From sequence record NC_023693.1: a stretch of DNA of 64,000 nucleotides; one strand, 5' to 3'. This DNA comes from Escherichia phage phi92. Position 1 is the stretch's first letter; each line of letters opens with the position of its first letter. Shown here in pieces: positions 27,522 to 64,000 of the stretch. The notes under the pieces are model-generated. The model saw nothing but the letters and a program-made list of their open reading frames with translations. It was not told the DNA's origin and searched no databases. Both the position numbers and the translations under genes were made by a program.

Positions 27522-27556
27522 CTGTTTCTCCTTCTTATTTAATCTGTATTAAATTA

Positions 27557-28162
27557 TTAACGACGACGTGAGCTACTAAAACTACGTTTCGACGAAGAAT
27601 AACTTTTCGAAGACTTACTATAAGAGCTAATAGGGCTTGAGTAAGACTTACGAGCAGAGTAATCACTATTCACTTTCGTTGTTGATGGGCGTGAATACGT
27701 TTGTACACTTTGCTGCTTAATTGTGTTTTGTTTAGTGGTTGTATATGTATTTCCTTGTTTATCATAAAAACTATGCTTTTGTGTTGTATATGCTTTACTG
27801 TTAGTTGTAGGAGCAGCGTTGTTATTAATAATTGTTGTGTTGCTACCACCATCTCTATAACCGCCACCGCCACTATTACCACTCAACATATGACCAAGAA
27901 GCATACCTGTAGCAAACTCACCTACACCAGAAGAACCACTGCCGCCTCCTTGCACAACAACTGTTGAAGGTTGTGCAGGTGCTGCTTGAACAACTTGAGG
28001 TGCAGGCTGATTTACATATTGTTCATCTACCATCTGATTTGGTGTTTGTTGGTAACGTTGATTTTGTACATTTTCAGAATCATCACAACCTACCAGCAAT
28101 GCACTACCTAAAACAACTGCAACAATAAAAGATTTAATGTTTTTCATTTGTAACCCTCTCAT
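27557..28162 (-). CDS. lipoprotein with low-complexity Q/S/T/Y-rich region
   Basis: Signal peptide with lipobox LLVGC; G-rich and S/Y/K-rich low-complexity C-terminus. Confidence 0.45.
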   Translation of the reverse strand: MRGLQMKNIKSFIVAVVLGSALLVGCDDSENVQNQRYQQTPNQMVDEQYVNQPAPQVVQAAPAQPSTVVVQGGGSGSSGVGEFATGMLLGHMLSGNSGGGGYRDGGSNTTIINNNAAPTTNSKAYTTQKHSFYDKQGNTYTTTKQNTIKQQSVQTYSRPSTTKVNSDYSARKSYSSPISSYSKSSKSYSSSKRSFSSSRRR

Positions 28163-28340
28163 TTAAAGTCTCAACACAATTTTTAAAATCCCTAGAGAAA
28201 CAATACATCTGTTCTCCGTTCCTGTTGATAGTAATTGTATGGTTATCAATATATGTTGTCAAGATAAAAATCAAACAAAACAACCCTAGAGCAAAACAAA
28301 TATTTTCAAACAGAATCCAAAGAACACGTAAAACCACCAT
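28134..28340 (-). CDS. small membrane protein
   Basis: 68 aa, hydrophobic segment; overlaps start of downstream gene. Confidence 0.3.
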   Translation of the reverse strand: MVVLRVLWILFENICFALGLFCLIFILTTYIDNHTITINRNGEQMYCFSRDFKNCVETLNERVTNEKH

Positions 28341-28379
28341 CAGATCACCTCAACAAAGCCCCCGAAGGGGCTTAATGAA

Positions 28380-29357
28380 TTAAGCAACAGTCTGGTCTTC
28401 TTTTTCAGGGAAGATTAAACTTGCAACAACACCCAACCCAAGAGTACCTAACACAATATACATACTGATCGTCGGATCAATGTGTGCTGGCAGGAAACTG
28501 GCTTTTGCGTGCAGAGTTTCTGCAAACGGGTGATACATCAGTTTTACACCCACAAACACCAGGACTACGATAACTGCTTTCTCCAGATGAACCAAATATT
28601 TCAGTGCAACACTAAGGACAAAGAACAGAGCACGTAGACCTAAGATTGCACAGAGCATCGAAGAGAACACTAGCAGAGGTTCTTGTGTCACTGCAATCAC
28701 TGCTGGAACAGAGTCTACTGCAAAGATTACGTCAACCATTTCCATTACAAACACACAAACCAGAGCCGGAGTTGCTACACGAACACCATTTTTGATTGTG
28801 AAGAACTTCTCACCATCCATCTGATCAGATACAGGGAACAGCTTACGAACAATGCGAGTAGCCCAGTGTTTAGAGTAATCAACTTCTGCATCATTATCTC
28901 CAGCGAATACCATTTTAGCCGCACAGAAAAGGATGACAGCACCGAAGAAGATATTAACATACCAGCCCAAACTCAACAAGTAAGTACCTACTGCTACAAA
29001 CACACCTCGGAAGACAATCGCACCTGCAATACCCCAAAGTAGAATCTTGTGCTGCAAGTGTGTGCTTTTAATACCAAAACTTGCGAATACTGCTACAAAT
29101 ACTACTAAGTTATCTACAGAAAGAGATTTCTCCAACACATACCCACTCAAGAACAAGCTCGCAAAATCAGCACCGTGTTGGAAGTATACAAAACCATAGT
29201 AGGCTAATGATACCCCAATCCAGAAAATTGACCAGCCAATTGCAGATTTAAATGAAATTTCTTTGTTTTCTCTGTGTCCAAAGAAATCAATACAAATCGA
29301 CAAGACTAAAATACCCACTAAAACAACCACATCAATAATTGGGAAACCCAGTTGCAT
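28380..29357 (-). CDS. TerC-family integral membrane protein
   Basis: 325 aa with multiple hydrophobic helices and conserved acidic residues in helices, as in TerC. Confidence 0.6.
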   Translation of the reverse strand: MQLGFPIIDVVVLVGILVLSICIDFFGHRENKEISFKSAIGWSIFWIGVSLAYYGFVYFQHGADFASLFLSGYVLEKSLSVDNLVVFVAVFASFGIKSTHLQHKILLWGIAGAIVFRGVFVAVGTYLLSLGWYVNIFFGAVILFCAAKMVFAGDNDAEVDYSKHWATRIVRKLFPVSDQMDGEKFFTIKNGVRVATPALVCVFVMEMVDVIFAVDSVPAVIAVTQEPLLVFSSMLCAILGLRALFFVLSVALKYLVHLEKAVIVVLVFVGVKLMYHPFAETLHAKASFLPAHIDPTISMYIVLGTLGLGVVASLIFPEKEDQTVA

Positions 29358-29375
29358 TCTTTTCTCCTCTTTAAT

Positions 29376-29396
29376 GCGGAGGACAATCCTCCGCTC
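29376..29396 (-). promoter_or_regulatory. hairpin in leader of TerC-like gene
   Basis: GCGGAGG-ACAAT-CCTCCGC located between the - strand RBS and the upstream gene. Confidence 0.3.
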
Positions 29397-29434
29397 TATG
29401 TCGTATACTATAAACTGTTTTTAAAGAAAGTCAA

Positions 29435-29683
29435 CTAGTTCAGTTCTGTAATTTTAAGTTTATCTTCTTTGTTAATGATAGGGAAAGCTACAGCATCACC
29501 TACATCATCAATAAAGCAAATAGCAAGACCACCTTCCACTTTGCTAACCTGACCATTAAAGGCGTGATACGGGGCAGGAACAATATCTCCATCTTCAAGG
29601 AGAATAGCCTCATAAACCTTACCAATAGTACAATCACGAGTGTTTTTAAATTTTTCAAGCACTTCAACATTTACTTTACGCAT
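29435..29683 (-). CDS. hypothetical protein
   Basis: 82 aa ORF. Confidence 0.35.
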   Translation of the reverse strand: MRKVNVEVLEKFKNTRDCTIGKVYEAILLEDGDIVPAPYHAFNGQVSKVEGGLAICFIDDVGDAVAFPIINKEDKLKITELN

Positions 29684-29697
29684 ATAAAGATCCTCTC

Positions 29698-29904
29698 TTA
29701 TTTGTTAGATTGAAAGATACCACGAAGTACCGCAAGAATGAACGTCACACAGACTACACTCCAAAACGTTACAGGAACATGATGCCAGTCTAAACCGATA
29801 ATGTCAATCATATAGTTGTATGCTAAAAGCAGTAGCCAACTAGGGATTAACACAATCAAGAACACAACAATAAAACAACCTAATACTGCTAAAACACCTG
29901 CCAT
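29698..29904 (-). CDS. small membrane protein
   Basis: 68 aa with two hydrophobic helices. Confidence 0.35.
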   Translation of the reverse strand: MAGVLAVLGCFIVVFLIVLIPSWLLLLAYNYMIDIIGLDWHHVPVTFWSVVCVTFILAVLRGIFQSNK

Positions 29905-29913
29905 ACTTTCTCC

Positions 29914-30630
29914 TTATTTCAGTTTGTAAACAATTACATTTAAACCTTTGTTCACTAGAGTTTCTTCGATCATAAGTTTTACAATATTCCAAGAACCTCC
30001 AGCCAAACCACAACCAAGCATTGGTAAACCTACAATTTTACCGCCTGAAGATACAACATCGTCTCCCATACTATCTAACGCATTGTAGATAGCTTCATAA
30101 TTCAGGTCACGCTTACCTTCCTCACGACGACTATAACCATATTGTCCATATAAATTATAAATTGTCAAATTGTTTTCTGTATACTTAGTAAACGTACCTA
30201 ATTTTTTATAATCACCACGTTTAGTGGCACAATCTGCTTTAAACGCACCAGGCCACTTGCTTTTAATTTTTGGTGCAATACCACTACCCATAGTGCAAAA
30301 ACAGTTACAGCAGTGTGCTATAGCGTCTATATCGCCTCTCTCGGCTGCTGCTAAAAGATCACCGTATACCTCAATGATACCTGCTGGATAACTTGTTACA
30401 ATTTCATCTTCCCAGTACATTTGCTCTACACCACCGATCAGTGCAAAGTTTTGTGTAATGCGATCATCAATATAATTAAGACCTGAAACATACACAGCAT
30501 ATTCATCCTGTGCTGTAATACCTTGTACACGAATTCTTAAGACACCATCTTTATCTGTTGCTACACGCCCAAAATCTTTTTCTGTAATATTGGTGATAGG
30601 ATCTCCGAAAGTCGTCACTTTATTAGACAT
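29914..30630 (-). CDS. macro-domain (ADP-ribose binding/hydrolase) protein
   Basis: GDIDAIAHCCNCFCTMGSGIAPKI and GLPMLGCGLAGGSW match macro-domain signature blocks; start set to ATG (MSNKV) with RBS aaagggga, 2 nt after the upstream stop. Confidence 0.5.
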   Translation of the reverse strand: MSNKVTTFGDPITNITEKDFGRVATDKDGVLRIRVQGITAQDEYAVYVSGLNYIDDRITQNFALIGGVEQMYWEDEIVTSYPAGIIEVYGDLLAAAERGDIDAIAHCCNCFCTMGSGIAPKIKSKWPGAFKADCATKRGDYKKLGTFTKYTENNLTIYNLYGQYGYSRREEGKRDLNYEAIYNALDSMGDDVVSSGGKIVGLPMLGCGLAGGSWNIVKLMIEETLVNKGLNVIVYKLK

Positions 30631-31480
30631 AATAATCCCCTTTAACATTAGATTTGTTGATAATGTTGCTTTCAAAAAATTGACGCAGGAAATCAAAGTT
30701 CTCTTTGTATTTTTCAATATTATTGTAACCTTCTGCAAGGCAACCAAAGAACAGTTGTTCTACATAATACAAAGGAAGTTGTGAAAGTGCAATTTTAAAA
30801 TCAACTTCGCTTTGACTCATTAGATACTTAATAGGACGAACCAAACATTTAGCATCAGTTTCTTGCTTAATCATTTTAATAAAAGCTGCCAGGTTATTGA
30901 TATAGTTGAAGTTAAGTGCAGCTTCGGTGTTGGCTTCTGTACCTTCATACTTTGCAAAGTACAGGAAAAACGTATCGTTTTCAACACCTTCTTTGTCTAA
31001 AATTTCAATAAGTTTTTCTTCGTGTGTACCTGTAATATTAACATCATCAATGAAAATCAGATTTTTATCGCCCCAAAAATCACGATTGATAGAGAAAGTA
31101 TCACCATCGATCAAAGCCTTACGATCTTCTTTGCTAAGAAATCCATAATCATTGATATAGCTCACTTTACGATGAACGATATCCCACTCTACTGCTTTAC
31201 CTCCTTTGATAGAGATTAGGTAGTTGAGGTGATCTACAAAATGTTCAGATAACACTGTAGCTGCATTTTTAACATAGTTATATGGAGATGGAATAACAAC
31301 AAAACTTTCATTTACCAGTCGTTCTTCATATTTAGAAAAGAAACTTTCAGCCAGAATGCGTCCCATTCTTTTTGCTGCCTGGTTGCTGCCAAACTTTAGT
31401 TTGGAATAATCTGCAATGTTAAATTTTGCTTCCTTCAGGTTAGTAAAAGTATTAGCAAAATGTTGAATTTGATTACGCAT
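30623..31480 (-). CDS. phosphoribosyltransferase-fold protein
   Basis: PRPP-binding-type motif NLIFIDDVNITGTHEE. Confidence 0.5.
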   Translation of the reverse strand: MRNQIQHFANTFTNLKEAKFNIADYSKLKFGSNQAAKRMGRILAESFFSKYEERLVNESFVVIPSPYNYVKNAATVLSEHFVDHLNYLISIKGGKAVEWDIVHRKVSYINDYGFLSKEDRKALIDGDTFSINRDFWGDKNLIFIDDVNITGTHEEKLIEILDKEGVENDTFFLYFAKYEGTEANTEAALNFNYINNLAAFIKMIKQETDAKCLVRPIKYLMSQSEVDFKIALSQLPLYYVEQLFFGCLAEGYNNIEKYKENFDFLRQFFESNIINKSNVKGDYYV

Positions 31481-32129
31481 TAATAAGTTCCTCTTTTTTA
31501 AGTTTAGCCAACAAGTCTTCTGGATTAATAATATGACAGAACTTCATCCCTATGTCAACAGCTTTTCCATCATAAATCAAACTATCTCCAACGTGTAAAA
31601 TCTCCTCTGGTGCGAGATCAAACGTTACCATTTCATCAAAAGAGAGTTTAAAAAACCTAGGATCTGGTTTACACAAGCAAAACTCATCAGAAAAATGCAT
31701 AAAGTCAAATGGTAATTTTGTCAAGCCAGAATATACAGCTAAGAAACTACCAGGTACAAAATTAGTATTGCTCTTAATACTCAAAGAGTAGGTTGAACTT
31801 AGCTCTTCCAACTTCTTGCAAAGTTCAGGATTCAAGGTTGGAGGATGTTTTATAAACATTGCTAAACAGTCTCTTTTTAACCCATCCACTTTATCAAGAT
31901 CAATGTTCAAACGAGTAGAAAGTGTTACCCAAGCATCCTTAGACGTTCCACAAATGCCTTTTTCTGCTTTTAAATCCAAGAGAGTTTTTACCTCTTTATA
32001 TACGGTAGCTGCTTCTACCTCAGAACAAGAGGCATACTCGGCAATAACCTTGTTGCGCTCTTCTGCATACAAAGGGTTAGCAGTAATAAGAGTATTCCAT
32101 ACATCAAAAGAAATATGCTTAACAGTCAT
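31473..32129 (-). CDS. HAD-superfamily hydrolase-like protein
   Basis: Motif I-like FDVWNTL (second Asp replaced), motif II SIKSNT, motif IV GDSLIYDGK; start set to ATG (MTVKHISF) after RBS ggagga. Confidence 0.5.
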   Translation of the reverse strand: MTVKHISFDVWNTLITANPLYAEERNKVIAEYASCSEVEAATVYKEVKTLLDLKAEKGICGTSKDAWVTLSTRLNIDLDKVDGLKRDCLAMFIKHPPTLNPELCKKLEELSSTYSLSIKSNTNFVPGSFLAVYSGLTKLPFDFMHFSDEFCLCKPDPRFFKLSFDEMVTFDLAPEEILHVGDSLIYDGKAVDIGMKFCHIINPEDLLAKLKKEELINA

Positions 32130-32131
32130 TT

Positions 32132-32287
32132 TTAATCCTCCGTCCAAAAGAATATCATCTGCTTAATTTTATTGATTTCTTGATGTAGTAACTTTCCAGC
32201 ATGTGATTGATCTTTAATATTGACAGCAAGAATTTCAAGTTCCGTTAGTTTTTCTTGGATAGCTTTATATTCATCATCTGTAAGCAT
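32132..32287 (-). CDS. small hypothetical protein (51 aa)
   Basis: ATG with RBS aagggga; in-frame stop overlaps RBS of the HAD gene; below track size cut-off. Confidence 0.35.
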   Translation of the reverse strand: MLTDDEYKAIQEKLTELEILAVNIKDQSHAGKLLHQEINKIKQMIFFWTED

Positions 32288-32298
32288 TTTCTTCCCCT

Positions 32299-32502
32299 TT
32301 AGAATGGTAATCTTTGTATGTCACTTATCCCCACACCAAGAAGTCTAGCAATATCCTTATCTAAAAGCAACTCTTTTTGTTCTAAAATGTTAATCAGATC
32401 TCCTAATACTTCTTTAATGTCACGATCATTTTTAGCAACGTGACCACCTGCCGTATCAACTTTATCTTTAAAAACAAAGTAATGATCCATAATACCCTCC
32501 AT
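32299..32502 (-). CDS. hypothetical protein
   Basis: 67 aa ORF. Confidence 0.35.
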   Translation of the reverse strand: MEGIMDHYFVFKDKVDTAGGHVAKNDRDIKEVLGDLINILEQKELLLDKDIARLLGVGISDIQRLPF

Positions 32503-32509
32503 ATAAATA

Positions 32510-32528
32510 AAGGAGGCTTTCGCCTCCT
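32510..32528 (-). terminator. terminator hairpin
   Basis: GGAGGC-TTTC-GCCTCC with flanking A/T runs, downstream of the ATPase gene. Confidence 0.45.
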
Positions 32529-32536
32529 TTTATCAC

Positions 32537-33697
32537 TTAGTAAGAACGAGCACCAAACACATACTCTGTGTAGTTTTTACGTTCTTTGTTTTTAATAACA
32601 ACTTCAATGTTGTTGCCTTTATCATCGGTGAACACAAAGTGATAACCGTCACCACCCATTGTACGGATGTGTTTTTCATCATACGTCAGCAAGATACGGT
32701 CTACACCCCAGTAGTAGTCACCTTCTTCATCTTTGTCTTCTACTGTAACGACCCCTTCCATTTCAGGAAGATGTTCTTCTCCTAGCTTATGGTCTACAGC
32801 TACAACATAACGATTACCGCTAAACAAACCCTGTGCTGTCATACCGTCAATATCGGTATCTGCCGAAACATCTCCTGTACGATCTACACCGTTGACTTTC
32901 AGAAGTTTAACTTCTTTTGCAGCATAGCGGTGTTCAGTAATACTGATACCCATTAATGCAAGTGCATCAGAGAATTTGTCATTAGGGTAACGGTTAAGTT
33001 CTTCTACTAATGACTGAACAATATCAAAGTTCAAGTCCACGGAAAGATTATAAAGCGTTTCAAAATCTGGTAAAAAGGCTTTGTTCTCCAGATTTTTAGC
33101 CAGATAGTCATCCATAGTAGCTTTAGGTAGTTTCTTATAGCTAAAGCTGTAGAAAATACGGCTAGGACGATTACGCAAAAATTCTGATACATAACCATCG
33201 TTTTTAGTCAATACAAACAGCTTGTCGTAGCCACCTACACCATCCAGCAGGGTAAGCAAGCCATCCTGTGCATCTTTTTCAGCATACAGTTTATCAAATT
33301 CATCGATCATAATCATCACAGGTTGTGTGATTTTAGACATAAAATTGATAAAGCCTTCGCCATTAAAAGCACTACCGATAGGAATAGTAGGAATACCCAT
33401 TTCACGAAGAGCAGAAGACAGCATTTTAGCTTGCAAAGTTTTACCGCTACCCTTCGTACCCTCAAGGAGAACACCTGTGTTTTTACCTTTGCGGCTAAGG
33501 AACGTCTTGATAATACGTTCTGATTTATCATCAGTATCACCGTATGTTACTGAAGGGACTTCCATATCGTTTTTAGGATACAGGAAGAACTCACCACTTT
33601 GAGTAACACCTACACCAAAAGTTCCTGCTGGAATTTCTTCAATATCTGTACCAGACTTCTGACGCAGGAAGATTTGATTGCCGAATACTGTAAACAT
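32537..33697 (-). CDS. P-loop ATPase (paralog of 48994-50121)
   Basis: Walker A GTKGSGKT, Walker B IMIDEFDKL; long collinear similarity to the + strand ATPase. Confidence 0.5.
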   Translation of the reverse strand: MFTVFGNQIFLRQKSGTDIEEIPAGTFGVGVTQSGEFFLYPKNDMEVPSVTYGDTDDKSERIIKTFLSRKGKNTGVLLEGTKGSGKTLQAKMLSSALREMGIPTIPIGSAFNGEGFINFMSKITQPVMIMIDEFDKLYAEKDAQDGLLTLLDGVGGYDKLFVLTKNDGYVSEFLRNRPSRIFYSFSYKKLPKATMDDYLAKNLENKAFLPDFETLYNLSVDLNFDIVQSLVEELNRYPNDKFSDALALMGISITEHRYAAKEVKLLKVNGVDRTGDVSADTDIDGMTAQGLFSGNRYVVAVDHKLGEEHLPEMEGVVTVEDKDEEGDYYWGVDRILLTYDEKHIRTMGGDGYHFVFTDDKGNNIEVVIKNKERKNYTEYVFGARSY

Positions 33698-33717: not shown

Positions 33718-34188
33718 TTAGTCAGATTCCCAAATGTTGTCTTTCTTAATCCACATTCGTTGATTATCTGAACCTCTATAACGTTTCGTTGTTGGTTGAT
33801 TCATATCATACTTACCATCTATCACTATGTCAACCAGTTTTTTAATTTTTTCTGGAATTTCCTCAAAAAGATATCCTGTATATAAGACAATATCTTTTTT
33901 GTTTCCAAAACAATCTCTTACCTTCTCAAGAACATACTCTACAGTGTCAATGTTCTCTTTGTCAAGAGGTTCACCACCTAAAACTGTTAATCCTTTAATG
34001 AAAGGTCGAGATAAATCTTTCAAGATAAGATCTAATGTTTCAGTAGTGAACTCTTGTCCGTAGTTATACGACCAGGCTTTCTGGTTAAAGCAGCCACGGC
34101 AACCGTGGCTACAACCGCTCACCCACAAAGAGCATCTTACACCGTCACCGTTGAGCATGTCAACAGGTTCATATCCGGCGTAATTCAA
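33718..34188 (-). CDS. nrdG: anaerobic ribonucleotide reductase activating protein (radical SAM)
   Basis: CSHGCRGC radical-SAM cysteine cluster near N-terminus; 156 aa; adjacent to nrdD. Confidence 0.75.
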   Translation of the reverse strand: MNYAGYEPVDMLNGDGVRCSLWVSGCSHGCRGCFNQKAWSYNYGQEFTTETLDLILKDLSRPFIKGLTVLGGEPLDKENIDTVEYVLEKVRDCFGNKKDIVLYTGYLFEEIPEKIKKLVDIVIDGKYDMNQPTTKRYRGSDNQRMWIKKDNIWESD

Positions 34189-35164
34189 AAATGTTTCTCC
34201 CTTTCTAGTACCTCTTGCATTTTACCTTTATTATAAGGGCGAGAGTTAGGGGCAGAAAGGTATCCTGACACTCTTCTGATCACAGATATGGATTCTTCTT
34301 CATGATTACCGCAACTTGGACACTCGAAGCCTTTAGCCGTTGCTTTAAATTCACCATGAAAACCACATTTGAAACACTGATCTACAGGTTGGTTCACGCC
34401 AAAATAAGGAATTTTATTGTAGGCATAATCTACAAGAGTTTCCAGTGCTTGCAAGTTATTTTTAAGGTTTGGTGTTTCTACATAACCTATGTTCCCACCA
34501 TTACTAATTTGTGCAAAACCTTCCTCATAATCCCACTTTTGGAACGGGGTAGTGTGCATCCATACAGGTTGATGGAAAGAGTTTGTCAAGTAGTCACGAT
34601 CAATAGAACCAGGATAGCGATCATTTAACGCTTTGGCAAATTTATAGCACAAGGATTCTGCTGGTGTTCCATACAAACTAAAAGCTAAACCAGAACGTTC
34701 TTTAAATGTGCCACAGATATCCTTCATATATTGAAGGATGTTTTTACCCATTGCTTTTGGATTGGTGTTACCTGGGTATAAAATCTCCATAGCTTCTGCT
34801 AAACCTACATAACCGATACTAATAGAGGCATAACCACCTTCGAATAGTTTACCAATCTCTTCATTAGCTTCTAATCGAGCTAAAGCCCCTTCCATAAACA
34901 ATGTAGGGTTTTGAGATGCTTTGGTATGTCTAATACGGTTAACACGTAGCATATGTGCCTTATACGCCATCTCCATATGTTGTTCCAACAGTTCAGTAAA
35001 TAAGATGCCCTTTTCACGGGACTCTGCTGCAATGATAGGTAAGTTTAAAGAAACTACGCCTAAGTTGAAACGACCATCATATTTTTCACCTTGCTCTGTT
35101 GCATAGTATGACAAGAAACTTCTACACATTATGTTCAAAGTGGCTCGCAAGGCCACTCCCGCAC
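34185..35164 (-). CDS. nrdD: anaerobic ribonucleoside-triphosphate reductase, exon 2
   Basis: Glycyl-radical region RRVSGYL and C-terminal CFKCG...CPSCG zinc site; frame open upstream of the track start into the intron. Confidence 0.7.
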
Positions 35165-35398
35165 CATTACGTGCTGCTGCATGTCACCATGCAGATCAGA
35201 CTATATCTTCATGCTTAAAGCATGTCTACCATTTGGGGTGTCATAGGCTTACACCCTACGCTGCTACATTCATCACAGCTAGTCGTTAGGCATTTCGTAA
35301 CAGTACCCCCTTCTTCTGTGTTGGGAGTTCTGTTACGTTTAGCACGGGATTGTCTCGTTGAGAGTTCCCCCGTTTAGGCAGATTTTACATGAGCAGTT
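35165..35398 (-). ncRNA. group I intron (T4 td/nrdD-like), ORF-less; splice sites approximate
   Basis: About 235 nt interrupt nrdD; - strand reads ...TCTGCCTAAACGGGGGAACTCTCAACGAGACAATCCCGTGCTAAAC... closely resembling the conserved core of the T4 td intron as recalled from memory. Confidence 0.6.
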
Positions 35399-36263
35399 AT
35401 AGTTTACCCATGCTTGTGACGCGACCATCTGAAGATCCTGTAACTTCTTTGTTTAAAGGTACAGAGATAAAATCAGGATAAATGCGTTCAGCACAACACT
35501 CCATTGCCAGTTGCTTCAAATCATAGTTTGGATCGCCAGCTTTCATGTTAACACCATCTTCCAAGAAGAAGATAACTTTAGGAAACACAGGAGTTACCCT
35601 ATCTTTTCCTAATCCTTGTTTGTGCACCATTAGGTAGTTTTTAGTGATCATTCTACCAAAAGCAGAGGTATCCAAACCTAAACTAATTGTTATAAAAGGT
35701 GACTGACCATTTACACTCATTAGAGTGTTCACCTGGTAGATTAAAGTTTGCATTGCATCATAGACCTGTTTATCTACCATACGCATAGCAATATCATAAT
35801 CGCCAACATCGGCATATATTTTATTAAAACTTGCTTTAACGTATTGACTAAGCCCAGTATCAACATGTGCACAAGTTTGTCCACCATATTGGCTAGAAGC
35901 TACTGCTTGAATAATTTGAGTTAGGACAGTAGTCGCTACACCGATAGATTTTGGTTTTTCAATATGTGCATTACCAATACGGAAACCGTTCTCAAGCATA
36001 TCTTGGTAATTTACCAGGCAACAATTAGTTAAAGGTGAGAGTAAATAATCTAAATCGTGAATGTGACCATACCCACTTTTATGCCATTCTGCCAGATCTT
36101 CCGGTAAAATATGGGTCATTGCCATGTGCTTGCTTAGGATACCTGCTAGTAAATCTCGGTGAGTATTAACAATCATTGCAGGTTTGTTTGCATTTTCACG
36201 AGTAAATTCTTCGGATGTTTGTTCGAGGAATCCGATTACATCCTCATATAGTTTTTGGGTCAT
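35399..36263 (-). CDS. nrdD: anaerobic ribonucleoside-triphosphate reductase, exon 1
   Basis: 288 aa N-terminal portion ending a few codons into the intron; contiguous in function with exon 2. Confidence 0.7.
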
Positions 36264-48993: not shown

Positions 48994-50121
48994 ATGAAAT
49001 ACACGATTTATGGTGATATTGTAAGTGTAAATAAAGATATGGGCGTGGAATCTAACTATCTTCCACCTGGATTCTATACTGTTAGTCGTGATCCCCTTGG
49101 CAATTATTTTTTAAGCCGTGGTAATCTAACAGGTGTACCGGATGTTCTGTATGGTGAAACAGAAAAACGAGCAAATCACGTTATTCGTACATTCCATCGC
49201 CGGAGTGCACAAGGTAAAAATACAGGCTTGCTTCTGACAGGAACTAAGGGCAGTGGTAAAACTATGTTAGCCAAGCTCATTAGTCGTGACCTTGTAGAAG
49301 AAGGTATTCCAACTATTATGGTTACTCAAGCCTACAGTGATGCTAATTTCATTGAACTTATTAGCAAGATCACCGACAAAGCAGTAATTATTTTTGACGA
49401 ATTTGATAAAGTATACGAGAAGAAACAAGATCAAGAAGCACTTCTCACTTTGTTAGACGGTACTGGTAGTGGTAATAAACTGTTTATTTTGACTAAAAAC
49501 AGTGGTTTTATCTCGGAATTCTTTTTAAATCGTCCTAGTCGTGTGTTTTATAATTTTAATTATGATAAAATCTCACTAGAAACCATGATTGACTATTTAG
49601 ATAAAAACCTGGATAACAAAGCACACTTTGATAATTTCCAAAGACTTTGGGATGTAAGTTTAGAGTTGTCCTTTGATGTGATCCAAGGTATAGTAGAAGA
49701 ACTTAATTTCTACCCTGATTTATCCTTTAAAGAATGCATCTCTATGATGGGTGTTTCTTTAGGTGGTGGTAATAAATGGGATATCAGCAGCGTTGTTATT
49801 AATGGAAAACTTCAGAAAGTTAGCTGGGTATCTAGTTGGCATAACTTTACACCTGCAATCTTTTTAGGTGGCTCGTGCACACTAGACGTGTACTTGTCAT
49901 CTCCAAGTGATGCAGATTCTAAAGAAGCCCTTGCTAATAGCTCTTACGTGGTTTTTGATGATGAAGGCGATGCTCGAATTCCATTGAACGCAACAAAAAT
50001 GAAAGCAGATCTTATTACAGGCGGTAAAATCGTTGTGTTTAGTGATGATCCAGAAGATTCTTTCCGTATTGTTCTGGAACCAACTATCACCAATGGTGCA
50101 ACTTTGGCAAGCGTGTTTTAA
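48994..50121 (+). CDS. P-loop ATPase (paralog of 32537-33697)
   Basis: Walker A GTKGSGKT, Walker B IIFDEFDKV; collinear similarity to the - strand ATPase over most of its length. Confidence 0.5.
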   Translation: MKYTIYGDIVSVNKDMGVESNYLPPGFYTVSRDPLGNYFLSRGNLTGVPDVLYGETEKRANHVIRTFHRRSAQGKNTGLLLTGTKGSGKTMLAKLISRDLVEEGIPTIMVTQAYSDANFIELISKITDKAVIIFDEFDKVYEKKQDQEALLTLLDGTGSGNKLFILTKNSGFISEFFLNRPSRVFYNFNYDKISLETMIDYLDKNLDNKAHFDNFQRLWDVSLELSFDVIQGIVEELNFYPDLSFKECISMMGVSLGGGNKWDISSVVINGKLQKVSWVSSWHNFTPAIFLGGSCTLDVYLSSPSDADSKEALANSSYVVFDDEGDARIPLNATKMKADLITGGKIVVFSDDPEDSFRIVLEPTITNGATLASVF

Positions 50122-50135
50122 GTAAGCCAGCAAAT

Positions 50136-50160
50136 AAAAACCCGCTTCGGCGGGTTTTCT
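50136..50160 (+). terminator. rho-independent terminator
   Basis: AAAAACCCGC-TTCG-GCGGGTTTTCT. Confidence 0.55.
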
Positions 50161-50195
50161 TGCATTAATGCCAGATTTAATAAGAGGAGTAGTAG

Positions 50196-51386
50196 ATGGC
50201 AGCACCAAAATCATGGGAACAATATAAAGAAGAGTGTCAACCAATAGCAGAGAGTAAGCAAATCCAAATCTTAGGATGGACGGGAGAATGGAAAGGGAAC
50301 AAGACTAAACTTAAGCTATCTTGCTCTGATCATGGAGAGTGGAACACCACGAACATTAATGATTTTAAGAATGGACGTGGTTGTCCGGCATGTACAAGTA
50401 ATAAGTCGTTAACATGGGAAACAGAATTGCCGATCTTAGAAGAGATAGCACAGAAGAAGGGGTATCAAGTGTTAGGGTACGTTGGAGAATGGAAAGGGGT
50501 TAATACAAAACTTGATTTGTTGTGTCATTGTGGGAATAGATGGCAAAGTACAATTATTAAGACATTTAAACGTGTAAATGGTTGTCCACAGTGTAGAATA
50601 GAGAAGGTAAAGCAAGCCAGTACGAAGTCAGATGATGAAAGGATCGCCTCTTTCCTTGCTAAGCGGGATTATCCAGAAGGAACTATCTTTAAACGATCTG
50701 ATCGGACTACCTTGCAAGGTCGTGCAGTTTATTGGTTTGTGTATTGCCCTATCTGTGCACAAGATGAAATAACGAAAGCTGGGTTATGTAGTGGATGGTT
50801 TGAAAGTACAGCAGGGGATTTGCAAAAAGGGACTGCCGCTTGTCGTTGTAGTAAGTCCCCTAAATACACAGACGATCAGAATACATTCCGTGCAATGAAG
50901 GTATGCGAGGATAACGGTTATCAGTTTGTTGGTTGGGTTGATAAGGTAGGAACACAGTCTAAGTTTAAATATCTGTGTCCAGAACACGGGGTACAAATTA
51001 TAACATTGGGTAGTATGGTTAGGGGTCATGGATGCCCTGAATGTGCTGGTAATAGTCAACAGCAATTATATATTAACATTGTTAAAGATAATGATATTAC
51101 CGTTGCTCTTAAGTTTGGCATAGCTAAAGATAGCGACAGGCGATTAAACAGTCAAAATAGCCGTAATCTGTTTTTTATGGAGCGTATTTGTTTATATGAT
51201 TTTAGTACAGTGAAACAATGTAAGGCTACTGAAAGAGCTATAAAGAAAAAATTAAAAACTGGTATTTTAACGGCAAGAGAGTTGAAAGACGGTTATACAG
51301 AAACAGTAAGTGTTTCTGATTTGGAAAATCTTCAAAAAATTATTACACAATATGGTGGCAAATTGGTATATAGTAAGGAGGTGTAA
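50196..51386 (+). CDS. zinc-ribbon repeat protein with C-terminal T5orf172 (GIY-YIG-like) domain
   Basis: Repeated units GW.GEWKG..TKL.L.C..HG.W...GCP.C; C-terminal LYINIVK...ALKFGIAKDSDRRLNSQN. Confidence 0.5.
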   Translation: MAAPKSWEQYKEECQPIAESKQIQILGWTGEWKGNKTKLKLSCSDHGEWNTTNINDFKNGRGCPACTSNKSLTWETELPILEEIAQKKGYQVLGYVGEWKGVNTKLDLLCHCGNRWQSTIIKTFKRVNGCPQCRIEKVKQASTKSDDERIASFLAKRDYPEGTIFKRSDRTTLQGRAVYWFVYCPICAQDEITKAGLCSGWFESTAGDLQKGTAACRCSKSPKYTDDQNTFRAMKVCEDNGYQFVGWVDKVGTQSKFKYLCPEHGVQIITLGSMVRGHGCPECAGNSQQQLYINIVKDNDITVALKFGIAKDSDRRLNSQNSRNLFFMERICLYDFSTVKQCKATERAIKKKLKTGILTARELKDGYTETVSVSDLENLQKIITQYGGKLVYSKEV

Positions 51387-51938
51387 ATGCGGATTACTGA
51401 TAAGTATGTGTTCTTCTTCTCGGCAAAAGATGAATTTAGCAACTGGTATCTATCATCTTTTATTGAACCTTTAGCACCCAAGTATAATAACTCTATTACA
51501 AGTTCTGTTGAATTTACTTGTGTGGAACAATATATGATGTGGAGAAAAGCATGTTTGTTTTATGATTACAATATTGCATCTTCTATTTTAATCGGAGATC
51601 TCAGATATACAGGAGAAAAAGAACAAGCATATTATAAGCGACTAGGTAGATTAGTTAAAGATTATGATGAAGACACCTGGACTTCTTTACGGGAGAAGAT
51701 TGTCAAACGTGGTTTGTATCTTAAATACACACAAAATGAAGATCTCAAAAATAAACTTATCGCTTACGCAGATAAGGAGTTCGTAGAGGCAAGCCCCTAT
51801 GATTCTATTTATGGTATCAAAATGGGGATGTGGGATCGGGACGTGGAAAATAAGGATTGTTGGAAAGGACAAAATCTTTTAGGAAAATGGCATACAGACC
51901 TTGCTGTTTATCTAAAAACACAATCTGATATTTCCTGA
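51387..51938 (+). CDS. NADAR (YbiA-like) domain protein
   Basis: FFFSAKDEFSNWYLSSF, EQYMMWRKA and EASPYDSIYGIKMG blocks match NADAR signature positions; RBS aaggagg. Confidence 0.5.
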   Translation: MRITDKYVFFFSAKDEFSNWYLSSFIEPLAPKYNNSITSSVEFTCVEQYMMWRKACLFYDYNIASSILIGDLRYTGEKEQAYYKRLGRLVKDYDEDTWTSLREKIVKRGLYLKYTQNEDLKNKLIAYADKEFVEASPYDSIYGIKMGMWDRDVENKDCWKGQNLLGKWHTDLAVYLKTQSDIS

Positions 51939-52154
51939 TATTTTGAAAATTTTTATTTTTATAAAAAGGGGTGTGGGTTTCATGTACGGAAATTCACCCT
52001 CTGCACAGTATACCCAGAGTAAGTATTATTCTATACTCTGTTAATAAAGTATTTAATTTGTTTGTTGGACTATGGTATCTGGTTTTTAAAAGACACATTA
52101 TCTCTTAACTACTATTTATAACAGAACAGTAAAATCATTTTTATAAAAAGGACA

Positions 52155-52355
52155 AAATTATTTAAAGTTTTTACTAGATTTTTGGCTACAAATTTTGAAA
52201 ATGAAAAGTTCAAGTTTGGTCAAAATTATTTAAAGTTTTTGTACGTATTTCTATCCAGATTTTGAAAATGAAAACTTCAATTTTTTAAAAATTCCCCAGT
52301 TTATTTAAAGTTTTTTTGCCTTTTTCCGTAGAAAAATCAAAAATGAAAAGTTCAA
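52155..52355. repeat. three tandem imperfect direct repeats (iterons, about 70-75 bp)
   Basis: Each unit contains TTATTTAAAGTTTTT ... TTTGAAAATGAAAA(G/C)TTCAA. Confidence 0.6.
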
Positions 52356-52378
52356 TTTCGTGTTTTTATGGGTGTGCG

Positions 52379-52500
52379 GATGATAATCATTCTCATTTGT
52401 AAATGAGAATCATTATCATTTAATTATGTAAGTGATAATCATTCTCACTAAGAGAATGAGAATCATTAGCAAATGAGAATTTTTCTCATTTAGAGAATAA
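52379..52500. promoter_or_regulatory. cluster of palindromic operator-like sites (Fur-box-like)
   Basis: GATAATCATTCTCATTTGTAAATGAGAATCATTATC near-perfect 36-bp palindrome, plus GATAATCATTCTCA...GAATGAGAATCATTAGC and AAATGAGAATTTTTCTCATTT. Confidence 0.45.
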
Positions 52501-52753
52501 CGCGCAGGGGTGGTGTTTGTCTCGCGCTCCCGTGTCCCCTCGCCATACAATAAGAATAGCATAACCAACAACAAAAGCAAGCGATTATTTTTATCTTTAC
52601 ATTTCTTTACAAATTTATTTTAGACGAGCTACCGGCGATCAACCTTCCAACCAGTAGTGCCCTGGTATGTTAGCCCCGCCTTTACGCCGTGGGGGTGGCG
52701 CTTCCTCTTCTGTATGTAAAACAGTATAAGCCCGATCCCTGGGCTTGTCAAGA

Positions 52754-53020
52754 TTATTTTTTGTTTTCTTGCCAGGATAGGACACCTAACCAAAAATACA
52801 TGTCGCCCCGCGCCCCTGGTGGGATCTTGCTTTCCCCGCCGCCACTGCAAGCCCATAGATAACCATTTGCGAACGTATCAAAATGATCTATCTCTTCCAC
52901 CTTATGATCGCCCAGGTTGAGAACGGTTTCAACCTTTAAGCCCGTTGCGCTTGCTACCTGGTGCACCGTGCCGCCTTGCCAGCCCAATGAGTGCATGAGG
53001 TGTGAAGTAGTATTTGTCAT
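52754..53020 (-). CDS. hypothetical ORF in GC-rich island (uncertain)
   Basis: 88 aa ORF with weak RBS; local GC content visibly higher than the surrounding phage DNA. Confidence 0.25.
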   Translation of the reverse strand: MTNTTSHLMHSLGWQGGTVHQVASATGLKVETVLNLGDHKVEEIDHFDTFANGYLWACSGGGESKIPPGARGDMYFWLGVLSWQENKK

Positions 53021-53131
53021 GGTATCGCCCTTTCTTTGATGTGCGCCCTGGTTGGCGCGGTAGAAAGATAATAGCCCTTTCCTTTATAGATAGCAAGCAA
53101 AAAAGAAATGAAAAAAGATTAAAAAAAGGGG

Positions 53132-53160
53132 TTGACGTTCCTCACCTGGTAGCGTATTAT
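53132..53160 (+). promoter_or_regulatory. sigma70-like promoter
   Basis: TTGACG, 17-bp spacer, TATTAT. Confidence 0.4.
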
Positions 53161-53287
53161 TCATCTTGTCGAGGGGGGCGAGGCACAACGACAATAAACA
53201 AAAGGAGGGCGCAATGCAGGACGGGCAAAGGTGAGGATCTCCACAATCCACCGTCACAATAACATTACTTATAAAAGGTTGATAACG

Positions 53288-53392
53288 ATGATCAAGAAAG
53301 AAAACAGCTTGACGGTTGGAACGATTAACGCTATTTTGTTAGCCGTTCCAGTGTGGATCACTGTAGCAATTGTTGTTTCAATCATTCTATAA
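53288..53392 (+). CDS. small membrane peptide (34 aa)
   Basis: MIKKENSLTVGTINAILLAVPVWITVAIVVSIIL; below track size cut-off. Confidence 0.35.
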   Translation: MIKKENSLTVGTINAILLAVPVWITVAIVVSIIL

Positions 53393-53402
53393 GGCGTACA
53401 CT

Positions 53403-53684
53403 ATGAGCAAGGTAATTAATCATAAAGAGTTAAGCCCTACCCTTTCAATGAGTGAATGTACCGATGGTTTTTGGCTGTATGATGATACGCGCGGCATGAA
53501 TTTAGCCATGCGTGAAAAAACAGAAGAGGCGGCGTATATTAAAGCCCTGGAATACTACCAACGACGACTACAGGAAGTAGAAAGTAATTATAAAAGCCTG
53601 AAATCAAAGGTTGATCATTTTGTCGGTCAAGTAGTGGAAGAGGAAGAAGATCACTATTGCGAACGGTGCGGATCATATAGCTGA
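53403..53684 (+). CDS. hypothetical early protein
   Basis: Start set to ATG (MSKVINHK); track ORF starts upstream in the same frame. Confidence 0.4.
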   Translation: MSKVINHKELSPTLSMSECTDGFWLYDDTRGMNLAMREKTEEAAYIKALEYYQRRLQEVESNYKSLKSKVDHFVGQVVEEEEDHYCERCGSYS

Positions 53685-62589: not shown

Positions 62590-62803
62590 ACCTAAATAAA
62601 GATGATAGCTTTTACCTATCAAAAACGTTCACCGAAAAAAGTGAATAGATCGCGGTATCGAGCTAATCAAGGAGCAGATGAACAACCATACCATGAAGAT
62701 CATAAGGCGCTTACAACGTGTTTTAGACCGCTTATTTTTAATTTCTCAATGTAACTATCGGGCAAAAACAGCCTTTTTCTTGTCTTTCCTCTTAAATGAT
62801 AAT

Positions 62804-63948
62804 CATTCTTATTTATAGCTGATTATTTATGCAATAAACTGCATAATGCAATAATGATAATCATTCTTAACTTAAGACCATCTAACCTATAAAATAATAA
62901 GCTATCTAACTAAATTAAACCTAATTATCTCACTTTTATTTATAACTTACTGTTATTATCTCATTGATAACATTGTATTAAACAACAATAACTAATATAA
63001 ATCATTACTAAGCTAACTATAATCTATCTAACCCTTAAAACTACAATTATAATCTATCAAATTGTTGCACAAAGTAACTATTAAATTGTTAGTAACATTA
63101 CTAAATAATTTACATCCTACTTATTTATGATCTAATCTTTACCTCCCTATCTATTACCTAAATAACCATTTCATGTAGTAATCATTTCATACAATAACTA
63201 TAACAAGAAATATAATTCGCAAGCGTATCATTAGCAGCCTATGCCGGACACATAGGCGGCTAATAATAACGCAACTACACACCCCACATAATAACCATCA
63301 CCGATAGTTATTATTTGTGCTTATGTAGCTTGCAACAATTGCAAGCGCAACAATATACGAGAGTATATTGTATTCCCTTACATTGTTGCGGTGCGTTATT
63401 ATTAGCTAATGTTTAGAACATTGGCTATAATATAAGCTAAATAATAAGCTATGCAATAATAAACATGGTGAATAATGACATTGATGATCATAATGCGCCA
63501 CCCTCCAGGGGGCGCTATGTGTACACAAAGAAATCTTTCTTGTCAAGAAAAATATCATCACTATTGCGCAAAATTATTTACATCTGAATAGATGATTTTT
63601 CATACTATTGCCCCCATAATTATCTTTATTTGTTACCCCTAAATATCCTATTTGTTGAGCCTACTTTCTTAAAAGCGCAATAAATCAGAATTATCTTGAT
63701 TTTTAGTCGGTTTTATAGTATAGAAAATATGTAAATGATAATCATTATCAGCTATCTTCCACGGGTGGCACTATTTCACGCCAGATCATTTCATTTGACA
63801 AGGTGTATATAGATGTTTAGACTTGCCAAGCCATTGATTTACTTAGAATTTATCTGTTTTGTTGTGAGTAGTACCTTTCTTGCTCAGAAAATAATCAAAA
63901 GTCTTATAAGTCATTGAATGATAATGCAAATGATAATTATTCTCATTG
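62804..63948. promoter_or_regulatory. non-coding AT-rich region with four Fur-box-like sites and short repeats
   Basis: AAATGATAATCATTCTTA at 62804 and 62852, AAATGATAATCATTATC at 63733, AATGATAATGCAAATGATAATTATTCTCATTG at 63916; recurring (A)TCTATCTAAC motifs; no ORF of 60 aa or more. Confidence 0.4.
63259..63406. repeat. nested inverted-repeat structure
   Basis: Exact 14-bp inverted repeat GCTAATAATAACGC / GCGTTATTATTAGC enclosing palindrome GCTTGCAA-CAA-TTGCAAGC and inverted repeat CGCAACAAT...ATTGTTGCG. Confidence 0.5.
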
Positions 63949-64000
63949 ATATTTGAGGGGGACGGTCGGCAGAAATCGGGGGGCGCTGAAAATCGCGTTA

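What the first reader, a model, noticed from the sequence alone, without database searches (positions are those of the whole stretch)
51387..51938. NADAR-domain protein: candidate reverser of nucleic-acid ADP-ribosylation (anti-defence)
This ORF has the FSNF-like, E..M.W.KA and E.SP.D..YG.K.G blocks of NADAR (YbiA-like) proteins. NADAR enzymes are N-glycosidases, and family members have been linked to removal of ADP-ribose from guanine bases. Together with the separately encoded macro-domain protein (29914-30630), the phage may carry two complementary erasers of ADP-ribosylation, as expected for counter-defence against DarT-like toxin systems.
Basis: partly seen in the sequence, partly recalled or inferred. 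Interest (0 to 1): 0.7.

Follow-up and report, generated by a model that had tools for sequence, protein, structure and literature searches.

The report
Known phage anti-DarT1 NADAR enzyme
This gene encodes a small enzyme that strips a toxic ADP-ribose tag off guanine in DNA, letting the phage escape the bacterial DarTG1 defence; a 99% identical protein from a sister phage was already shown to do this in 2025, so the call is right but not new.

Summary
The ORF at 51387-51938 (+, 183 aa) is real and is a NADAR-domain protein: Pfam PF08719 scores 125 bits against a 35-bit cutoff, the AlphaFold model has pLDDT 97, and its best structural match is the Phytophthora NADAR bound to ADP-ribose (TM 0.76). 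All published catalytic and ADP-ribose-binding positions are present (E47, K54, K84, R88, E134, D139), and they are invariant or nearly so in 49 homologues. The window comes from a phi92-like E. coli myovirus (Justusliebigvirus). The protein is 181/183 identical to the NADAR of BASEL phage Bas60. Johannesman et al. (Nat Commun 2025) named that protein AdfN^Bas60. They showed that it neutralises DarT1 toxicity, restores plaquing of three DarTG1-sensitive phages, and does not counter the thymidine-specific DarTG2. The second-eraser idea is plausible but untested. The macro protein at 29914-30630 is a real macrodomain of the SCO6735/TARG1/DarG class. It is 30% identical (E 1e-17) to T4 Tk.4 (AdfM), which a 2025 preprint reports as an anti-DarTG2 factor. 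No knockout of either gene in a Justusliebigvirus was found. Side observation: a conserved cluster of Fur-box-like sites lies just downstream of the NADAR gene.

The parts
51387..51938 (+). NADAR-domain gene (183 aa), orthologue of AdfN^Bas60, the phage anti-DarT1 factor
   Evidence: ORF. Pfam NADAR 125 bits. 99% identical to Bas60 bas60_0111 / QXV83846.1. AlphaFold pLDDT 97.2. Foldseek best hit 8BAU, TM 0.76.
51375..51381 (+). Ribosome-binding site AAGGAGG, 5 nt before the ATG; the upstream gene's TAA stop (51384-51386) abuts the ATG
   Evidence: Read directly from the sequence.
51525..51527 (+). Codon for E47, which aligns with PnNADAR E43 and T4 AdfN E36 (coordinates the distal ribose)
   Evidence: Alignment to 8BAU. 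Invariant in 49 homologues. Residue roles taken from PMC11543638 and PMC11257639.
51546..51548 (+). Codon for K54, which aligns with PnNADAR K50, E. coli C7 NADAR K95 and T4 AdfN K43 (phosphate coordination, essential for activity)
51786..51788 (+). Codon for E134, which aligns with PnNADAR E125. This position is Glu in YbiA/NADAR-type enzymes, Asp in DarT1-associated NADARs and His in T4-type phage NADARs
   Evidence: Alignment to 8BAU. Invariant in 49 homologues. The hhalign run places it opposite the T4 gp30.3 His. Classification rule from PMC11543638.
29914..30630 (-). Macro-domain gene (238 aa: an N-terminal extension of about 85 aa plus a SCO6735/TARG1/DarG-class macrodomain). Candidate AdfM-like second eraser (inferred, not shown)
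   Evidence: Pfam Macro 31.3 bits. PDB SCO6735 5e3b E 3.4e-15 and TARG1 E 4e-10. T4 Tk.4 30% identity, E 1e-17. PADLOC DarG E 1e-13. NCBIfam antitoxin_DarG 48.9 bits, macro half only.

Best explanation
The gene encodes an orphan NADAR-type DNA ADP-ribosylglycohydrolase, carried without any partner toxin. It is the Justusliebigvirus orthologue of AdfN^Bas60. When a host that carries DarTG1 is infected, the DarT1 toxin attaches ADP-ribose to the N2 amino group of guanine in phage DNA and blocks replication. The phage enzyme binds the ADP-ribose: K54, K84 and R88 contact the phosphates, and E47 and E134 contact the distal ribose. It then cleaves the bond between ribose and guanine, which restores normal G and lets replication proceed. 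It acts on the lesion rather than on the toxin, so it should work against any enzyme that makes the same mark. It does not remove the thymidine mark made by DarT2. Shown here: domain, fold, active-site residues, and near-identity to the tested protein. Shown in the literature for the 99% identical protein: neutralisation of DarT1, rescue of three phages on DarTG1 hosts, and no effect on DarTG2. Inferred: the residue-level mechanism (by analogy with PnNADAR and E. coli C7 NADAR), and that the gene is what makes this particular phage resistant to DarTG1.
For: NADAR profile, fold and residues. Identity of 181/183 to Bas60 bas60_0111; the two differences (N62S, I69T) fall outside the invariant and near-invariant columns. 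Experiments on AdfN^Bas60: PMC11825919 section 11 and the preprint PMC11257639. Roles of the catalytic residues: PMC11543638, and the E36A and K43A mutants of T4 AdfN in PMC11257639. Orphan status: the neighbours are an AAA ATPase, a CapR/T5orf172 endonuclease-like gene and non-coding DNA, with no adjacent ADP-ribosyltransferase. The gene is conserved in 54 phage records at 95% identity or more, each with a single copy.
Against: In the sections I read, I found no deletion of the gene in a Justusliebigvirus and no in vitro assay of AdfN^Bas60; its activity was shown by expression from a plasmid. I could not confirm the accession the authors used because the supplement is not held. The link therefore rests on this being the only NADAR gene found in Bas60. 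NADARs from several clades hydrolyse G-ADPr in vitro without protecting cells (PMC11125620), so in vitro capability alone would not prove a defence role; here the in vivo rescue data fill that gap. The protein also passes the curated cutoff of TIGR02464, which is named for a riboflavin-intermediate N-glycosidase.
Confidence: 0.87

Rival explanations
1. The enzyme's main natural substrates are broader than, or different from, DarT1-modified DNA. It would be a general eraser of base ADP-ribosylation (guanine in RNA, cytidine in DNA or RNA, marks from pierisin/ScARP-like or YarT-like toxins), and anti-DarT1 activity would be only one facet.
For: It belongs to the Glu-type 'NADAR proper' clade: closest to PnNADAR, carrying E134, and unrelated at BLAST level to T4 gp30.3. 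Members of that clade (SCO5665, the sponge NADAR) and YbiA-type enzymes also remove cytidine-ADPr, and all NADAR families remove RNA G-ADPr (PMC12945103). Unlike T4 AdfN, AdfN^Bas60 works without phage-specific factors.
Against: Within the same clade the E. coli sigma70-linked NADAR did not remove C-ADPr, so clade membership does not predict that activity. No such toxin is known to act as a phage defence in E. coli. The only phenotype demonstrated is anti-DarTG1.
Confidence: 0.2
2. It is a metabolic N-glycosidase like E. coli YbiA, destroying reactive riboflavin-pathway intermediates or similar nucleotide-like metabolites during infection.
For: TIGR02464 ('riboflavin biosynthesis intermediates N-glycosidase') scores 109.4 bits against a 73.7-bit cutoff. 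Public records call it 'YbiA-like N-glycosidase'. The YbiA structure is the second-best fold match.
Against: Sequence similarity to YbiA itself is marginal (E 0.032). Neither flank of the gene encodes a riboflavin-pathway domain such as RibA or RibD; the neighbours are an endonuclease-like gene and non-coding DNA. YbiA does not protect cells from DarT1 (PMC11125620), whereas the 99% identical phage protein does. TIGR02464 is a domain-level model.
Confidence: 0.04
3. It regulates ADP-ribosylation carried out by the phage itself, erasing marks written by a phage-encoded transferase, rather than countering a host defence.
For: Phages such as T4 encode ADP-ribosyltransferases (Alt is visible), and the window phage carries both a NADAR and a macrodomain.
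Against: No ADP-ribosyltransferase turned up among the 17 window proteins I scanned against Pfam, though I did not scan all ORFs. The demonstrated phenotype is neutralisation of a host toxin.
Confidence: 0.03

Closest known systems
AdfN^Bas60 (NADAR of BASEL phages Bas60/61/62; Johannesman et al., Nat Commun 2025, PMC11825919)
   Same: 181 of 183 residues are identical. The genomic position is the same: downstream of the AAA ATPase and the CapR/T5orf172 gene, and upstream of the same AT-rich repeat region. The phage genus is the same, Justusliebigvirus.
   Different: There are two substitutions (N62S, I69T), both outside conserved columns. The upstream endonuclease-like gene differs in length: 1191 nt here, 1404 nt in Bas60 and 1173 nt in Bas62.
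AdfN^T4 (gp30.3), prototype phage anti-DarT factor NADAR
   Same: Same superfamily and same job (guanine-ADPr removal, anti-DarTG1). The catalytic Glu and Lys pair, spaced seven residues apart, is conserved: E47/K54 here and E36/K43 in T4.
   Different: There is no BLASTP-detectable similarity (E 2.2). T4-type enzymes have His where this protein has E134. [quoted passage not shown] The authors consider the two to be independent acquisitions.
Phytophthora nicotianae NADAR (PDB 8BAU) and other stand-alone 'NADAR proper' enzymes
   Same: Best sequence match (E 3e-13) and best structural match (TM 0.76) among solved structures. All ADP-ribose-contacting residues are conserved, including the Glu at position 125 (E134 here).
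   Different: Only 28% identical. 8BAU is a eukaryotic protein of unknown physiological role. This protein has Tyr (Y142) where PnNADAR has W133.
DarG1 (DarT1-associated NADAR antitoxin; E. coli C7, G. lovleyi 8BAT)
   Same: It reverses the same lesion and can substitute functionally as a DarT1 antidote.
   Different: There is no adjacent DarT1 gene. The catalytic position carries Glu instead of Asp. The DarG1 N-terminal extension is absent. There is no phmmer hit to 8BAT at E up to 1.
T4 Tk.4 / AdfM and DarG2 macrodomains (comparison for the macro ORF at 29914-30630)
   Same: 30% identity to T4 Tk.4 at E 1e-17. It matches the macro half of the DarG models. Its closest solved relative, SCO6735, is listed as an eraser of thymidine-ADPr on DNA.
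   Different: It has an extra N-terminal region of about 85 aa of unknown function and lacks the DarT-binding C-terminal domain of DarG2. It lies in a TelA/TerC/PRTase/HAD cluster. Its activity is untested.

Membership tests
NADAR superfamily (Pfam PF08719 / DUF1768) | Profile match above the curated gathering score | tested here: met
   125.4 bits against a 35.1-bit cutoff, E 3.3e-36, covering profile positions 9-154 of 163.
NADAR superfamily (Pfam PF08719 / DUF1768) | Helical NADAR/YbiA fold | tested here: met
   AlphaFold model with pLDDT 97.2 and pTM 0.91. Foldseek finds only 8BAU (TM 0.76) and YbiA 2B3W (TM 0.69) as significant hits.
NADAR superfamily (Pfam PF08719 / DUF1768) | Conserved ADP-ribose-binding and catalytic residues (PnNADAR E43, K50, K75, R79, E125, D130) | tested here: met
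   They align to E47, K54, K84, R88, E134 and D139. All are invariant in 49 homologues except R88, which is at least 90% conserved. Residue roles are from PMC11543638.
AdfN (phage anti-DarT factor NADAR) | Phage-encoded orphan NADAR with no adjacent DarT toxin | tested here: met
   The window is a Justusliebigvirus genome. The neighbours are an AAA ATPase, a CapR/T5orf172 gene and non-coding DNA.
AdfN (phage anti-DarT factor NADAR) | Sequence identity to an experimentally validated member | tested here: met
   99% (181/183) to the Bas60 NADAR and 98% to the Bas62 NADAR. The accession the authors used could not be checked because the supplement is not held.
AdfN (phage anti-DarT factor NADAR) | Neutralises DarT1 toxicity and restores phage growth on DarTG1 hosts, but not on DarTG2 hosts | not testable with these tools
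   Reported for AdfN^Bas60 in PMC11825919 Fig. 5. Not tested for this exact variant.
AdfN (phage anti-DarT factor NADAR) | Necessary for DarTG1 resistance of its own phage (deletion phenotype) | not testable with these tools
   Shown for T4 adfN. No such experiment was found for Bas60-type phages.
T4-type phage NADAR clade (gp30.3-like) | Detectable sequence similarity to gp30.3, and His at the PnNADAR E125 position | tested here: not met
   BLASTP E 2.2. hhalign probability 7.5%, with E134 placed opposite the T4 His. The rule for this position is from PMC11543638.
DarG1 antitoxin (DarT1-associated NADAR) | Encoded next to DarT1; Asp at the catalytic position; N-terminal extension | tested here: not met
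   No adjacent toxin gene. The position carries Glu134. The NADAR domain starts at about residue 8-13, so there is no extension. No hit to 8BAT at E up to 1.
YbiA-type riboflavin-intermediate N-glycosidase (TIGR02464) | Match above the curated NCBIfam cutoff | tested here: met
   109.4 bits against a 73.7-bit cutoff. This is a domain-level model of the whole NADAR fold.
YbiA-type riboflavin-intermediate N-glycosidase (TIGR02464) | Fusion to or linkage with riboflavin genes (RibA/RibD), or close similarity to E. coli YbiA | tested here: not met
   It is a stand-alone 183-aa protein with unrelated neighbours. phmmer to YbiA 2B3W gives only E 0.032.
DS-32 NADAR anti-phage protein (NF053876) | Match above the curated cutoff | tested here: not met
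   26.3 bits against a 240-bit cutoff.
AdfM / DarG-type macrodomain (for the macro ORF 29914-30630) | Macrodomain homologous to T4 Tk.4 and to the DarG macro half | tested here: met
   Pfam Macro 31.3 bits against a 22-bit cutoff. T4 Tk.4 30% identity, E 1e-17. PADLOC DarG E 1e-13 over model positions 6-144 of 329.
AdfM / DarG-type macrodomain (for the macro ORF 29914-30630) | Full DarG2 antitoxin architecture (macro plus DarT-binding domain) | tested here: not met
   NCBIfam antitoxin_DarG scores 48.9 bits against a 250-bit cutoff and matches only model positions 4-147 of 338.
AdfM / DarG-type macrodomain (for the macro ORF 29914-30630) | Removes thymidine-linked ADP-ribose and protects against DarTG2 | not testable with these tools
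   Reported for T4 tk.4 in preprint 10.1101/2025.11.20.689424. Untested for this protein.

The most novel reading that the evidence does not exclude
Justusliebigviruses would carry a two-enzyme eraser kit. The Glu-type NADAR would be a generalist that removes guanine-ADPr and possibly cytidine- or RNA-linked ADP-ribose written by toxins other than DarT1. The DarG-like macro protein, with its unique N-terminal domain, would cover thymidine-ADPr from DarT2. Together they would make these broad-host-range phages resistant to base ADP-ribosylation in general.
Probability: 0.25. Interest if true: 0.45.

Novelty: already known. Interest (0 to 1): 0.2.

Why it matters
The result confirms that a sequence-only reader can correctly pick out an anti-defence gene, and it ties this window to an experimentally characterised counter-defence protein. 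In practical terms, phi92-like phages are candidates for phage therapy, so it is useful for host-range prediction to know that they carry an anti-DarTG1 enzyme and probably an anti-DarTG2 one. It does not open a new question. Three points remain open: whether the gene is necessary in its own phage, the enzyme's full substrate range, and the role of the macro protein.

Tried and rejected
1. YbiA-like riboflavin N-glycosidase. The domain-level model TIGR02464 passes its cutoff, but similarity to YbiA itself is marginal, there is no riboflavin-gene context, and YbiA does not protect against DarT1 whereas the near-identical phage protein does.

2. Membership in the T4 gp30.3 clade. Rejected: BLASTP E 2.2, and Glu rather than His at the diagnostic position.

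3. DarG1 antitoxin. Rejected: no adjacent toxin, no N-terminal extension, Glu rather than Asp.

4. DS-32 NADAR defence protein. Rejected: 26 bits against a 240-bit cutoff.

5. Confirming the AdfN^Bas60 accession from the paper's supplement. The supplement is not held.

6. Looking for published tests of the NADAR or macro genes in the native phage group. None was found. One candidate preprint had no usable text.

7. The GC-rich island downstream of the gene (52500-53250). It has no match in E. coli genomes, no Rfam family and no RNA-folding signal (z = +1.36). Its 88-aa minus-strand ORF has no NCBIfam hit.

8. A literature search for Fur boxes in rV5/phi92-like phages returned only an unrelated lambda sit-operon case.

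9. A transcription terminator immediately after the NADAR gene. The pattern scan found no convincing one.

Full report
**Observation.** The ORF at 51387-51938 (+) encodes 183 aa. It has a canonical AAGGAGG ribosome-binding site five bases upstream, and its ATG abuts the TAA stop of the preceding gene. Pfam NADAR (PF08719) matches at E 3.3e-36, 125.4 bits against a gathering score of 35.1, over almost the whole profile. NCBIfam TIGR02464 also passes its cutoff (109.4 against 73.7 bits). The protein falls in PHROG 1017, listed as 'unknown function'.

**Where the window comes from.** Megablast of 50000-53500 finds 138 phage records, the best at 97% identity (Escherichia phage vB_Eco_PATM). Other close hits include the BASEL phages Bas60 (PaulScherrer) and Bas62 (JohannJBalmer), which their GenBank records place in Stephanstirmvirinae, genus Justusliebigvirus, that is, phi92-like E. 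coli myoviruses of about 147 kb. Several of these records already label the gene 'NADAR family protein' or 'putative YbiA-like N-glycosidase'.

**Identity with a characterised protein.** The window protein is 181/183 identical to the Bas60 protein (bas60_0111, QXV83846.1) and 98% identical to the Bas62 and PATM proteins. Johannesman et al. (Nat Commun 2025, PMC11825919; preprint PMC11257639) report that Bas60, Bas61 and Bas62 encode a NADAR which they call AdfN^Bas60. Expressed from a plasmid, it had three effects:
- it restored plaquing of RB69, T5 and Bas25 on a DarTG1 host to full titre;
- it had no effect on T5 blocked by the thymidine-specific DarTG2.

tblastn finds essentially one NADAR locus per phage record (726 places in 723 records), so the Bas60 gene I aligned is almost certainly the one tested. 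I could not check the accession table because the supplement is not held. In the text available to me I found no deletion of the gene in a Justusliebigvirus and no in vitro assay of this particular protein.

**Anatomy and mechanism.** The best solved relative by sequence is the Phytophthora nicotianae NADAR crystallised with ADP-ribose (8BAU, E 3e-13). E. coli YbiA is marginal (E 0.032), and the DarG1 structure 8BAT is not hit. Schuller et al. (PMC11543638) describe the following residues in PnNADAR: E43 and E125 on the distal ribose, K50 (corresponding to E. coli C7 NADAR K95, which mutagenesis showed to be essential and linked to phosphate coordination), K75 and R79 on the pyrophosphate, plus D130 and W133. 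The chain in the PDB file is offset by two residues from this numbering. Allowing for that, the alignment maps them to E47, E134, K54, K84, R88, D139 and Y142 of the window protein. In an alignment of 49 homologues at 36-62% identity, E47, K54, K84, E134 and D139 are invariant and R88 is at least 90% conserved. An AlphaFold2 model built from that alignment is very confident (pLDDT 97.2, pTM 0.91). Foldseek against the PDB returns only two significant hits, 8BAU (TM 0.76) and YbiA 2B3W (TM 0.69). The most likely mechanism is therefore the published NADAR one: the enzyme binds the ADP-ribose attached to guanine N2 and hydrolyses the ribose-base bond, which restores guanine and releases ADP-ribose. 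This undoes DarT1's block on phage DNA replication. The residue-level roles are inferred by analogy; the cellular phenotype is shown for the 99% identical protein.

**Placement within the superfamily.** The diagnostic position equivalent to PnNADAR E125 is Glu here (E134). According to Schuller et al. it is Glu in YbiA-type enzymes, Asp in DarT1-associated NADARs and His in the T4-type phage NADARs. Direct BLASTP against T4 gp30.3 (AdfN^T4) is not significant (E 2.2). A profile comparison is weak (probability 7.5%), but it places E47 and K54 opposite T4 E36 and K43, and E134 opposite a T4 His. This agrees with the authors' statement that AdfN^Bas60 clusters with non-DarT, non-YbiA bacterial NADARs and was acquired independently of the T4 gene. 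The clade is widespread in large myoviruses. There are 723 phage records with a homologue: 54 at 95% identity or more, phAPEC8-like phages at about 58%, and Staphylococcus K-like, Listeria, Bacillus and Enterococcus phages and Lak megaphages at 30-45%. Several of those records annotate the homologous locus as 'GTP cyclohydrolase II'; I suspect, without having checked, that the label was transferred from RibA-NADAR fusion proteins.

**The 'second eraser'.** The ORF at 29914-30630 (-) has a genuine macrodomain (Pfam 31.3 bits against 22, residues 106-217).
- Its closest solved relatives are Streptomyces SCO6735 (5e3b, E 3.4e-15), BT1257 and human TARG1 (E 4e-10). DarG macrodomains follow at about E 1e-3.
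- SCO6735, TARG1 and DarG2 are listed as erasers of thymidine-N3-ADP-ribose on DNA in PMC12945103.
- tblastn hits the tk.4 genes of T-even phages, and BLASTP against T4 Tk.4 gives 30% identity at E 1e-17.
- A 2025 preprint (10.1101/2025.11.20.689424) reports that T4 tk.4, renamed adfM, is required for growth on DarTG2 hosts.
- The window protein matches the macro half of the PADLOC DarG model (E 1e-13) more strongly than T4 Tk.4 does (E 1.3e-9). It also matches NCBIfam antitoxin_DarG, far below that model's full-length cutoff, because the DarT-binding domain is absent.

So the idea of a NADAR plus macro pair has a direct precedent in T4 and is plausible here. It remains untested, for two reasons. 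The protein has an N-terminal region of about 85 aa of unknown function, which only about 53 records share at 95% identity or more. It also lies within a run of genes for TelA, TerC, a ComF-like PRTase, a HAD hydrolase, an AAA ATPase and NrdG/NrdD, which leaves room for a metabolic role.

**Rivals.**
- A riboflavin-intermediate N-glycosidase role like that of YbiA is suggested only by the name of a domain-level model. It is contradicted by the weak similarity to YbiA, the lack of riboflavin-gene context, and the fact that YbiA fails to protect against DarT1 in cells (PMC11125620) while the near-identical phage protein succeeds.
- A broader substrate range (cytidine-ADPr, RNA G-ADPr) is not excluded. 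Some enzymes of the same clade have these activities (PMC12945103), but the E. coli member of that clade does not remove C-ADPr, so this cannot be predicted from sequence.

**Verdict.** It is the orthologue of a published, experimentally characterised anti-DarTG1 factor, and some public records already annotate it as a NADAR protein. What is still open is whether the gene is necessary in its own phage, what its full substrate range is, and whether the macro protein is a working anti-DarTG2 partner.

**Seen in passing.**
- Directly downstream of the NADAR gene is an AT-rich stretch (22-26% GC) containing three direct repeats of about 65 nt (52155-52359). It is followed by four sites at 52381-52471 that match the Fur-box core TGATAATnATTATCA (consensus recalled from my own knowledge) with one or two mismatches. 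Across the window there are 9 such matches against 0.95 expected, and none of 100 shuffles reached 9. Three of these sites are exactly conserved in Bas60, Bas62, PATM and alia.
- A second cluster of these sites, including a perfect consensus at 63736, lies in the long non-coding region at 62755-64000. That region corresponds to the gap between the phi92 gp248 and gp002 homologues.
- A GC-rich island (about 50% GC) at 52500-53250 carries an 88-aa minus-strand ORF with no family match. The island has no counterpart in E. coli genomes.
- The nrdD gene is split by a group I intron at 35177-35451 (-) (Rfam 70.6 bits against 50).

Noticed in passing
window 52381-52471 (also 62797-62869, 63736-63750, 63931-63945): There are clusters of sites that look like Fur boxes (TGATAATnATTATCA with two mismatches or fewer): 9 in the window against 0.95 expected, and none of 100 shuffles reached 9. 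Four sit in a 90-bp stretch just downstream of the NADAR gene, and three of those are exactly conserved in Bas60, Bas62, PATM and alia. A perfect consensus lies at 63736. This suggests iron/Fur-responsive control, or Fur titration, in a lytic phage; I found no literature on it.
   Followed up: partly
window 52155-52359: Three direct repeats of about 63-67 nt (65-71% identical to the reference copy) lie in a stretch of 22-26% GC between the NADAR gene and the Fur-box-like cluster. The alia record annotates the equivalent as 'repeat_region'. They could be iterons of a replication origin or a regulatory array.
   Followed up: partly
window 52500-53250: This is a GC-rich island (about 50% GC against about 38% in the flanking DNA). 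It holds an 88-aa minus-strand ORF (52754-53020) with no NCBIfam hit, and a near-consensus promoter-like site on the minus strand (TTGACA-17-TATACT, 52751..52723). There is no match in E. coli genomes, no Rfam family and no RNA-folding signal.
   Followed up: partly
window 35177-35451 (-): A group I intron (Rfam RF00028, 70.6 bits against a 50-bit gathering score) splits the anaerobic ribonucleotide reductase gene nrdD into two ORFs (35397-36263 and 34185-35156). T4 nrdD (sunY) also carries a group I intron (from my own knowledge).
   Followed up: partly
window 50196-51386 (+): The gene immediately upstream of the NADAR gene, probably co-transcribed with it, encodes four CapR-homology zinc-ribbon repeats plus a T5orf172 domain and falls in PHROG 681 ('endonuclease'). 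Its length varies among close relatives (1173-1404 nt), which accounts for most of the roughly 83% coverage in the megablast hits. It may be a homing-endonuclease-like mobile gene.
   Followed up: partly
window 25480-33697 (-): The macro gene sits in a run of genes encoding TelA, two unknown proteins, TerC, a small unknown protein, the macro protein, a ComF-like PRTase (PRTase_3), a HAD hydrolase and an AAA ATPase. From my own recollection of Anantharaman et al. 2012 (not checked here), this resembles the Ter-associated 'nucleoside-like metabolite' gene neighbourhoods described in bacteria. It raises an alternative, metabolic reading of the macro protein.
   Followed up: partly
window 30376-30630 (-), the first ~85 aa of the macro protein: The N-terminal region of about 85 aa in the macro protein has no domain hit. 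Other phage macro homologues, including other Stephanstirmvirinae at 45-49% identity, align only from about residue 70-104 onwards. Only about 53 records match at 95% identity or more, and 70 records cover at least 80% of the protein.
   Followed up: no
phage records hit (e.g. H73, H77, H83, H103-H105, H109): Several GenBank phage records annotate 'GTP cyclohydrolase II' or 'GTP cyclohydrolase' under the match to this NADAR. The label looks like it was carried over from RibA-NADAR fusion proteins and is probably a mis-annotation; I did not check the individual records.
   Followed up: no
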